Assembly: GCA_951406725.2 (NCBI GenBank)
Contig: OX597836.1
Coordinates: 18,724,001-18,788,000, forward strand
Length of the DNA stretch: 64,000 bases
Reading direction: 5' to 3'
Source of the DNA: Octopus vulgaris
Lineage: Eukaryota
Below, in pieces: positions 9,208 through 9,436 of this stretch. The position numbers and the translations under genes were made by a program. Each line of letters begins with the position of its first letter. Position 1 is the stretch's first letter. The notes beneath the pieces are model-generated. The model was not told the DNA's origin, did no database searches, and worked only from the letters and a program-made list of their open reading frames with translations.

Positions 9208-9436
9208 TTTCTTTACTACCCACAAGGGGCTAAACATATAGGGGACAAACAAGGACAGACAAAGAAATTAAGTCGATTACATCGACCCCAGTGCGAAACT
9301 AGTACTTTATTTATCGACTCCGAAAGGATGAAAGGCAAAGTCGACCTCGGCGGAATTTGAACTCAGAACGTACCGACAGACGAAATACCGCTAAGCATTT
9401 CGCCCGGCGCGCTAACGTGTCTGCCAGCTCGCCGCC
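9208..9436 (-). mobile_element. Full-length SINE family 1, tail type B (Tx1-like), inside (GATA)n
   Basis: Complete head-core-tail; (GATA)n on both flanks. Confidence 0.92.

What the first reader, a model, noticed from the sequence alone, without database searches (positions are those of the whole stretch)
9208..9436. SINE tail B matches the 3' end of the Tx1 LINE and shares its (GATA)n site: candidate SINE-LINE pair
Seen: SINE tail B as read in the array copies, CCTTGT---TTGTCCTCTCTGTGTTTAGCCCCTTGTGGGTAGTAAAGAAATA, aligns with the Tx1 terminus CCTTGTAATTTTGTCCTGTCTGTGTGCAGCCCTGTGTGGCTAATAAAGAAACA (31375 and 24007 copies). The 9.2-kb copy carries this tail with a few substitutions and lies within (GATA)n in the same orientation as both LINE copies. 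Known: SINEs borrow partner-LINE 3' ends, most often from CR1/L2/RTE. Inference: this SINE is mobilised by a Tx1-clade element recognising a shared tail, and inherits its microsatellite preference.
Basis: partly seen in the sequence, partly recalled or inferred. Interest (0 to 1): 0.8.

Follow-up and report, generated by a model that had tools for sequence, protein, structure and literature searches.

The report
Octopus SINE carries a LINE tail
A very common short repeat in an octopus-like genome ends in about 45 bases copied from the end of an L1/Tx1-type jumping gene and probably borrows that gene's copying machinery, a pairing rarely reported for this group in animals, but it does not clearly share the jumping gene's taste for GATA repeats.

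Summary
The last 42 bases of SINE tail B match the 3' end of two LINE copies at 35/42 and 34/42 without gaps (9.2-kb copy 32/42). Both end at the same place. None of 500 shuffles reached the consensus score, and two other LINE types in the window do not match. Both LINE copies and the 9.2-kb SINE sit inside (GATA)n in the same orientation. The LINE is L1-group (APE, RT, zinc finger in relatives); Tx1 is likely but no tree was built.

The second half of the reading is not supported. Only 1 of 7 tail-B loci abuts GATA (chance about 15%). 11 of 14 tail-B units run on into another SINE body through one fixed junction. A tail-B dimer with a 14-bp target duplication sits in non-GATA DNA. The genome-wide flank test could not be run.

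Best reading: the SINE captured the 3' end of a Tx1-like LINE and is copied from that end, probably by several related LINE families, with weak or no GATA preference. I found no tail-sharing Tx1-SINE pair in nine searches of open-access papers; Repbase and Dfam were not available.

The parts
9208..9436 (-). Full-length monomeric SINE copy: tRNA-like head (A-box-like at nt 11-25, B-box-like GTTCAAATTCC near nt 76-86), body, tail B
   Evidence: boxes read by eye and regex; ARAGORN finds no tRNA and Rfam no credible hit
9208..9255 (-). Tail B of the 9.2-kb copy, homologous to the LINE 3' end (32/42 ungapped)
9120..9207 (+). (GATA)n on the 3' side of the SINE
9439..9520 (+). (GATA)n on the 5' side of the SINE
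24007..25214 (-). 5'-truncated L1-group (Tx1-like) LINE copy: end of ORF2 with zf-RVT, 3' UTR, no poly(A); (GATA)n at 3' side, short GATA then (GGTA)n at 5' side
31375..31890 (-). Second, shorter 5'-truncated copy of the same LINE, (GATA)n on both sides; 463/503 aligned columns identical to the first
27097..27503 (-). Tail-B dimer ending exactly at the tail-B terminus, flanked by a 14-bp target duplication in non-GATA DNA
55155..55355 (+). Tail-B monomer (internal deletion) inserted in what looks like a copy of a second SINE family; no GATA
21841..22712 (+). Four body+tail-B units in tandem, closed by a body with a different, (ATT)n-ending tail
32331..33122 (+). Head plus four body+tail-B units in tandem, ending 7 nt into a fifth unit; no GATA
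56850..57052 (+). Partial tail-B unit with the tandem junction, cut off by RTE-like sequence
61030..61314 (-). Full tail-B unit followed by the tandem junction and a partial second body

Best explanation
Tail B is the last 45-50 nt of an L1-group, probably Tx1-clade, LINE, captured by an abundant octopus tRNA-type SINE in place of its other tail (tail A), most simply by template switching during reverse transcription (inferred). The SINE RNA presents this end to the LINE's ORF2 protein, which starts target-primed reverse transcription at the shared terminus (inferred from where copies end). The GATA-inserting family in this window is one member of the donor lineage and probably made the 9.2-kb insertion. 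Other tail-B copies were placed by sister families with other or looser targets, or by the same enzyme acting less strictly in trans. A source copy with the fixed junction tail B + restart at SINE position ~50 gave rise to the dimers and short arrays. Shown: tail homology, co-terminal ends, L1-group identity, GATA sites of the two LINE copies, the fixed junction. Inferred: mobilisation in trans, Tx1 clade, sister families.
For: Tail identity 35/42 and 34/42, co-terminal, 0/500 shuffles; no match to the Dong/R4-like or RTE-like LINE pieces. The match falls within the 35-61 bp, 72-95% range reported for bivalve SINE-LINE partners (PMC11481361, passages). All 3 tail-B copies ending on outside DNA stop at the LINE-equivalent end; one has a 14-bp target duplication and ends ...ACA like the LINE. 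Neither element has poly(A), so a relaxed poly(A) route is not needed. Ages are similar: 7 SINE units are 86-93% identical pairwise, the two LINE copies 92%. Relatives of the ORF carry APE + RT + zf-RVT, and human L1 ORF2p is the best solved match (E 3.9e-50 against 3.6e-24 for R2). Alleles matching the LINE exist among tail-B sequences elsewhere: 67/123 and 62/125 reads at two sites in run X21; 5-6% and 0.5-0.9% of summed contig depth in X1 and X16. O. vulgaris has 80 L1-Tx1 consensus families (PMC13282606 supplement row), 13 of them recently active.
Against: The tails differ by 17-19%, more than the copies' ages explain, so this exact LINE family may not be the working partner. The predicted hairpin is no more stable than shuffles (z from -0.40 to 0.17, 5 sequences), shifts register between LINE and SINE, and 14 of 16 rows break one of its 4 pairs. 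Only two LINE copies, both from this window. 11 of 14 tail-B units are internal, where the tail may be a passenger. Run X21 gave only 200 of 12.9 million reads and its source is unnamed, so the intermediate alleles are weak evidence, and linkage between them is not shown. Tx1 versus L1 clade was not tested by a tree.
Confidence: 0.58

Rival explanations
1. One reading: this GATA-targeting Tx1 family is the partner, and tail-B SINEs as a class are enriched in (GATA)n.
For: The 9.2-kb copy lies in GATA on both sides, in the LINE's orientation, with a 3' junction compatible with the same nick if its last two bases (TA) overlap the target. 2 of 2 LINE copies are in GATA (chance 0.0005 if random). 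SINEU families share their Tx1 partner's target at only 13-90% (PMC4494074, passages), so a weak preference has precedent.
Against: 1 of 7 loci; 1 of 3 cleanly ended copies. p = 0.145 for at least 1 of 7; Fisher p = 1.0 against tail A. The 27-kb dimer and the 55-kb copy have unrelated targets.
Confidence: 0.17
2. Tail B is a passenger: a short LINE 3' scrap once joined a SINE, and the resulting multimeric SINE is spread by the tail-A partner, or by a relaxed LINE, and by local tandem duplication.
For: 11 of 14 units are followed by the same junction. That junction is a listed loose end in 665 and 508 contigs of two runs. The 21.8-kb array ends in an (ATT)n tail and the 32.3-kb array ends in ATTATT. 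A tail-A copy also has a 14-bp target duplication. No conserved hairpin. SINE-derived tandem repeats are known (PMC10702118, abstract).
Against: Three independent insertions end precisely at the tail-B terminus, one with a clean target duplication. The tail is kept intact across all 14 units.
Confidence: 0.17
3. The tandem junction is itself a target site: tail-B SINEs insert repeatedly into SINE position ~50 (self-targeting by a Tx1-type endonuclease), so arrays grow by insertion rather than from one multimeric source copy.
For: The junction reads tail + TAG + GTATTT, close to the body's own TAGCGGTATTT; 3' junctions at 9.2 kb, 55 kb and in the arrays all start with TA. Tx1 families that target other repeats are known, and tandem SINEU-3 copies were attributed to sequential insertion (PMC4494074, passages).
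Against: An identical junction at 5 loci is explained more simply by one origin. No LINE copy in the window sits at this SINE site. The site does not resemble (GATA)n beyond two bases.
Confidence: 0.05
4. Chance similarity between T/G-rich, A-ending sequences.
Against: 0/500 dinucleotide-preserving shuffles; both ends coincide; two control LINE pieces give nothing; the shared pattern has 15 window matches against 0 in 100 shuffles (the pattern was designed from these sequences, so this shows repetition, not homology).
Confidence: 0.03

Closest known systems
SINEU with Tx1-Mar in crocodilians (Kojima 2015, PMC4494074; passages and section 16 read)
   Same: A SINE inferred to be moved by Tx1-clade LINEs, sharing the LINE's target to a variable degree (13-90%); tandem copies occur.
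   Different: SINEU has snRNA heads and poly(A), and no LINE shares the SINEU-1 3' end; the link rests on target and 5' heads. Here the link is a shared 3' tail, the head is tRNA-like and there is no poly(A).
Tail-sharing pairs in the L1 clade: ZmSINE2/ZmSINE3 with LINE1-1_ZM, SINEX-3_CR with L1-1_CR (Ohshima 2013, PMC3747384; passages and Table 1 read)
   Same: About 45-80 terminal nt shared between a tRNA SINE and an L1-group LINE.
   Different: Those are plants and a green alga, with a hairpin backed by compensatory changes. Table 1 as read lists no animal L1 or Tx1 pair. No supported hairpin here.
Microsatellite-targeting Tx1 families Kibi (TC)n, Koshi (TTC)n, crocodilian (TTCC)n/(TTTC)n group (as described in PMC4494074)
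   Same: L1-group LINE inserted in fixed orientation within a microsatellite.
   Different: Target here is (GATA)n; 'GATA' does not occur at a word start in that paper's text. Only two copies seen.
Mollusc SINEs with conserved bodies and swapped LINE tails (MetaSINEs PMC4824008; bivalve HCD SINEs PMC11481361; passages read)
   Same: One head and body with alternative tails (A and B); tail matches of 35-61 bp at 72-95%; tandem forms.
   Different: Reported partners are CR1, CR1-Zenon, L2 and Nimb; 'Tx1' does not occur in the text of PMC11481361.
Octopus tRNA-derived SINEs of Ohshima and Okada 1994 (not read; seen only as citations, with OR1/OR2 named as CORE-SINEs in PMC4824008, PMC4758252, PMC5804259)
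   Same: Abundant octopus tRNA-type SINE; this family may be one of them.
   Different: Could not compare sequences; no partner LINE for them appears in the pair table read.

Membership tests
L1 group of non-LTR retrotransposons | ORF2 with AP endonuclease, RT and C-terminal zinc finger, closest to L1 ORF2p | tested here: met
   zf-RVT in the window ORF. RT and APE seen only in relatives: P0006 (68% identical over 99% of the window ORF) and P0014 (52% to P0006's RT region). L1 ORF2p is the best solved match.
Tx1 clade | RT phylogeny groups with named Tx1 elements | not testable with these tools
   No named Tx1 protein was returned. P0006 reads DQSKAFDRVDH where human L1 reads DAEKAFDKIQQ; that the former type marks Tx1 is recalled, not from a call.
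Tx1 clade | Target-sequence preference (common, not universal) | tested here: met
   2 of 2 copies in GATA with different 5' truncations; chance 0.0005. Small n.
tRNA-derived SINE | tRNA-related head with A and B boxes | tested here: inconclusive
   Box-like motifs present (B box read by eye, my regex missed it); ARAGORN 0 genes; Rfam no credible hit.
tRNA-derived SINE | Short, non-coding, interspersed, high copy, target duplications | tested here: met
   Over 30 related pieces in 64 kb; 208,543 and 173,249 contigs laid in two runs; 14-bp duplications at 2 of 13 SINE loci inspected.
Stringent SINE-LINE pair | Significant, co-terminal 3' sequence identity | tested here: met
Stringent SINE-LINE pair | Conserved 3' stem-loop with compensatory changes | tested here: not met
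   z -0.40 to 0.17; register shift, no LINE-SINE compensatory pair
Stringent SINE-LINE pair | Concurrent activity | tested here: inconclusive
   SINE units 86-93% pairwise, LINE pair 92%; one LINE pair only
Stringent SINE-LINE pair | Shared insertion signature | tested here: inconclusive
   1 of 7 loci in GATA; genome-wide test gave no flank data
Stringent SINE-LINE pair | Tail-dependent mobilisation in an assay | not testable with these tools
   needs a retrotransposition assay
MetaSINE superfamily | 66-bp Meta domain directly after the tRNA head | not testable with these tools
   Resemblance of the body is recalled only. Consensus is in a figure; supplement file 1 of PMC4824008 and of PMC4758252 could not be searched; short-motif searches of the other files found nothing relevant.

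The most novel reading that the evidence does not exclude
This is an animal L1-group LINE of the Tx1 clade that recognises its RNA by a specific non-poly(A) 3' end, and one of the dominant octopus SINE subfamilies rose by capturing that end. The LINE is strict for (GATA)n in cis while its SINE passenger lands far more loosely, or in its own body, which would separate RNA recognition from target choice in one natural system and give the first tail-sharing Tx1-SINE pair.
Probability: 0.3. Interest if true: 0.72.

Novelty: new variant of a known kind. Interest (0 to 1): 0.5.

Why it matters
[quoted passage not shown] The one Tx1-SINE link I found in print lacks tail homology (PMC4494074). A tail-sharing pair in an animal would bear on whether strict 3'-end recognition is ancestral in the L1 group and was relaxed in mammals. 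It would also name a driver for part of the octopus SINE expansion (SINEs are 11.6% of the O. vulgaris assembly, PMC13282606) and add (GATA)n to Tx1 targets. It is a mobile-element result, with no evidence of host function.

Tried and rejected
No whole genome is held for this window, so the genome-wide tests were attempted indirectly. Scans for the shared tail pattern found 0 loci in viral, metagenome and genome contigs; scans with the ORF2 alignment found none confirmed (89 and 29 candidates). Laying four runs on the 9.2-kb SINE gave no flank data, because the tool skips simple repeats; the two raw-read runs held only 9 and 200 matching reads of 12.9 million each. Summed contig depth over the tail was about a third of that over the body, but the tool states this is no copy number, so I do not use it. 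The zf-RVT-scoring ORF at 36031-37077 is not the partner: it looks like a Dong/R4-type element in (AAT)n (label recalled) and shares no tail. No LINE end in the window matches tail A. A conserved tail hairpin was tested and not supported. The idea that the GATA runs are the elements' own tails was rejected because runs lie 5' of the 31.4-kb LINE and of the SINE. The third protein search used P0112, which proved to be a fused or rearranged prediction, and returned no named Tx1. Earlier-finding look-ups by sequence and place were empty. One further tail-A copy (near 59112) was found after the Fisher test and is not in it; its flanks were not examined.

Full report
Setting. The window is 36% GC and rich in microsatellites. 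Named protein hits point to an octopus: two Octopus bimaculoides gene models contain pieces 97% and 83% identical to the LINE ORF, and an Argonauta protein is 64% identical. No whole genome is held.

The observation. The SINE at 9208-9436 (minus strand) lies between two (GATA)n runs. Two 5'-truncated copies of one LINE, 24007-25214 and 31375-31890, also on the minus strand, end in ...AAAGAAACA followed by (TATC)n. The 31.4-kb copy has GATA on its 5' side too; the 24-kb copy has about three units and then (GGTA)n. A majority consensus of 12 of the 14 tail-B units (two with indels left out) matches the LINE ends at 35/42 and 34/42 without gaps; the 9.2-kb copy gives 32/42. With the upstream CCTTG and the last two bases, the 21.98-kb unit gives 41/54 and 40/53 columns with one 3-4 nt gap. 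The best local alignment ends two bases from the LINE terminus. No shuffle of 500 reached the consensus score for either copy (49 against a maximum of 27; 44 against 28). Whole SINE copies gave 0 or 1 of 500. A Dong/R4-like and an RTE-like LINE piece in the window gave 287-398 of 500. The tail homology is real.

What the LINE is. The window ORF has a zf-RVT domain. Its relatives carry RT and, in full-length forms, an AP endonuclease. Human L1 ORF2p is the best solved match. So it is L1-group. No search returned a named Tx1 protein, so no tree could be built. Tx1 rests on the targeted insertion, the lack of poly(A) and a motif difference from human L1 whose diagnostic value I recall rather than tested. 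Two of two copies in GATA has a chance of 0.0005 if insertion were random, as perfect GATA runs cover 2.2% of the window.

What the SINE is. It has a tRNA-like head with box-like motifs, a shared body and at least two tails. ARAGORN and Rfam give nothing. It is very abundant: 208,543 and 173,249 contigs were laid on it in two runs. The body resembles the Meta domain from recall only; I could not test this.

Where tail B really ends. Of 14 tail-B units at 7 loci, 11 are followed by TAGGTAT, a restart at about position 50 of the SINE body. The same junction appears as a listed loose end in 665 and 508 contigs of runs X1 and X16, so it is a fixed feature of the family. Only three units end on other DNA: 9.2 kb (GATA), 27.1 kb (a dimer with the 14-bp duplication GATTCTGGTGACAC, ending ...ACA like the LINE) and 55.4 kb (inside a second SINE family). 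All three stop at the LINE-equivalent end. This is the best evidence that the tail is used for priming and is not only carried along.

The GATA claim. One of 7 tail-B loci abuts GATA, against 0 of 6 tail-A copies scored (Fisher p = 1.0; counting 4 loci that end in or just after tail B, p = 0.4). At least one hit among 7 random insertions has p = 0.145, among 4, 0.086. A seventh tail-A copy turned up later and was not scored. The 9.2-kb junction is compatible with the LINE's nick if the SINE's last TA overlaps the target, so that one insertion may well be the work of this LINE family. A class-wide preference is neither shown nor excluded. The genome-wide test gave no flank data because the read-laying tool skips simple repeats, and no public collection held further loci.

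Against a simple one-to-one pair. The tails differ by 17-19%, while 7 SINE units differ pairwise by 7-14% and the LINE copies by 8%. The capture is therefore older than these copies, or came from a sister family. The predicted hairpin is not more stable than shuffles and lacks LINE-SINE compensatory pairs. In run X21, which gave only 200 reads, about half the reads over the tail carry LINE-type bases at two sites (67/123, 62/125), and 13 reads run on into a sequence that shares a 6-base word with the LINE just upstream of the tail. This hints at intermediate tails, but the source is unnamed, linkage is not shown, and in X1 and X16 these alleles are 5-6% and under 1% of depth.

Mechanism, most likely (0.58). 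A tRNA-type SINE swapped its tail for the 3' end of a Tx1-like LINE. ORF2 proteins of that lineage start reverse transcription at the shared end. Target choice depends on which family supplies the endonuclease, or is looser in trans. A source copy with the fixed junction, lacking any run of four T in the 32.3-kb array and so open to read-through by polymerase III (inferred), gave dimers and arrays. Rivals: class-wide GATA inheritance (0.17), passenger tail (0.17), self-targeting arrays (0.05), chance (0.03).

Comparison with print. Kojima 2015 (PMC4494074; passages and section 16) links SINEU to Tx1-Mar by target and 5' heads and states that no LINE shares the SINEU-1 3' end; it lists (TC)n, (TTC)n, (TTCC)n and (TTTC)n as Tx1 microsatellite targets. 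Ohshima 2013 (PMC3747384; passages and part 1 of section 21 with Table 1) counts only three SINEs with L1 tails, in maize, sorghum and Chlamydomonas, and lists no Tx1 pair. Mollusc SINE papers name CR1, CR1-Zenon, L2 and Nimb partners (PMC4824008 passages and section 9, PMC4758252 and PMC11481361 passages). Passages of cephalopod repeat papers (PMC13282606, PMC8967140, PMC9115989) name no Tx1 partner. Term searches in PMC5786205, PMC7245038 and PMC3531059 found no 'Tx1'. PMC5804259 (passages) and PMC10702118 (abstract) gave context only. Nine library searches found no tail-sharing Tx1-SINE pair and no GATA-targeting Tx1. The library lacks most subscription papers, including Ohshima and Okada 1994 and Kojima and Fujiwara 2004, which I did not read, and Repbase and Dfam were not available. 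Two unsearchable supplement files may hold the relevant SINE consensus sequences.

Verdict. A real and probably unreported variant of a familiar arrangement. Observation confirmed, interpretation half supported. Interest 0.5.

Noticed in passing
window 36031-37271 (+): 3' part of a LINE with a C-terminal CxxC/HxxxxC motif and a nuclease-like RPD..D stretch, with (AAT)n on both sides; looks like a Dong/R4-type element (label recalled), a second microsatellite-associated LINE in the same window.
   Followed up: partly
window 29110-30358 (+): Seven-copy, 178-bp tandem array at 98% unit identity, built from a diverged relative of the same SINE body; a recent local SINE-derived satellite.
   Followed up: no
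window 13094-13270: Two SINE heads joined as an inverted pair (13094-13178 +, 13179-13270 -), forming a near-palindrome.
   Followed up: no
window 57060-58190 (+): RTE-like RT fragment (Pfam RVT_1; clade label recalled) ending in ATG-type repeats, wedged between SINE pieces on both sides.
   Followed up: partly
window 37515-37595 (-): Short old scrap of a related L1/Tx1-like ORF2 (82% over 39 nt to the 24-kb copy) directly beside the (AAT)n run.
   Followed up: partly
window 55130-55500 and 10941-11010 (+): A second SINE-like family; one copy hosts the 55-kb tail-B SINE, another 5'-truncated piece abuts a (GATA)n run, showing that GATA adjacency also occurs for unrelated repeats.
   Followed up: no
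whole window: 18 of 19 perfect (GATA)>=4 runs lie on the + strand, a strong local strand bias.
   Followed up: no
run X21 laid on window 9190-9459: 56 reads join tail B to a very short body piece, suggesting a short tandem repeat made mostly of the tail; source unnamed, only 200 reads in all.
   Followed up: partly
protein P0008: A 65%-identical relative of this LINE ORF is labelled as from a bacterial metagenome-assembled genome, probably host contamination.
   Followed up: no
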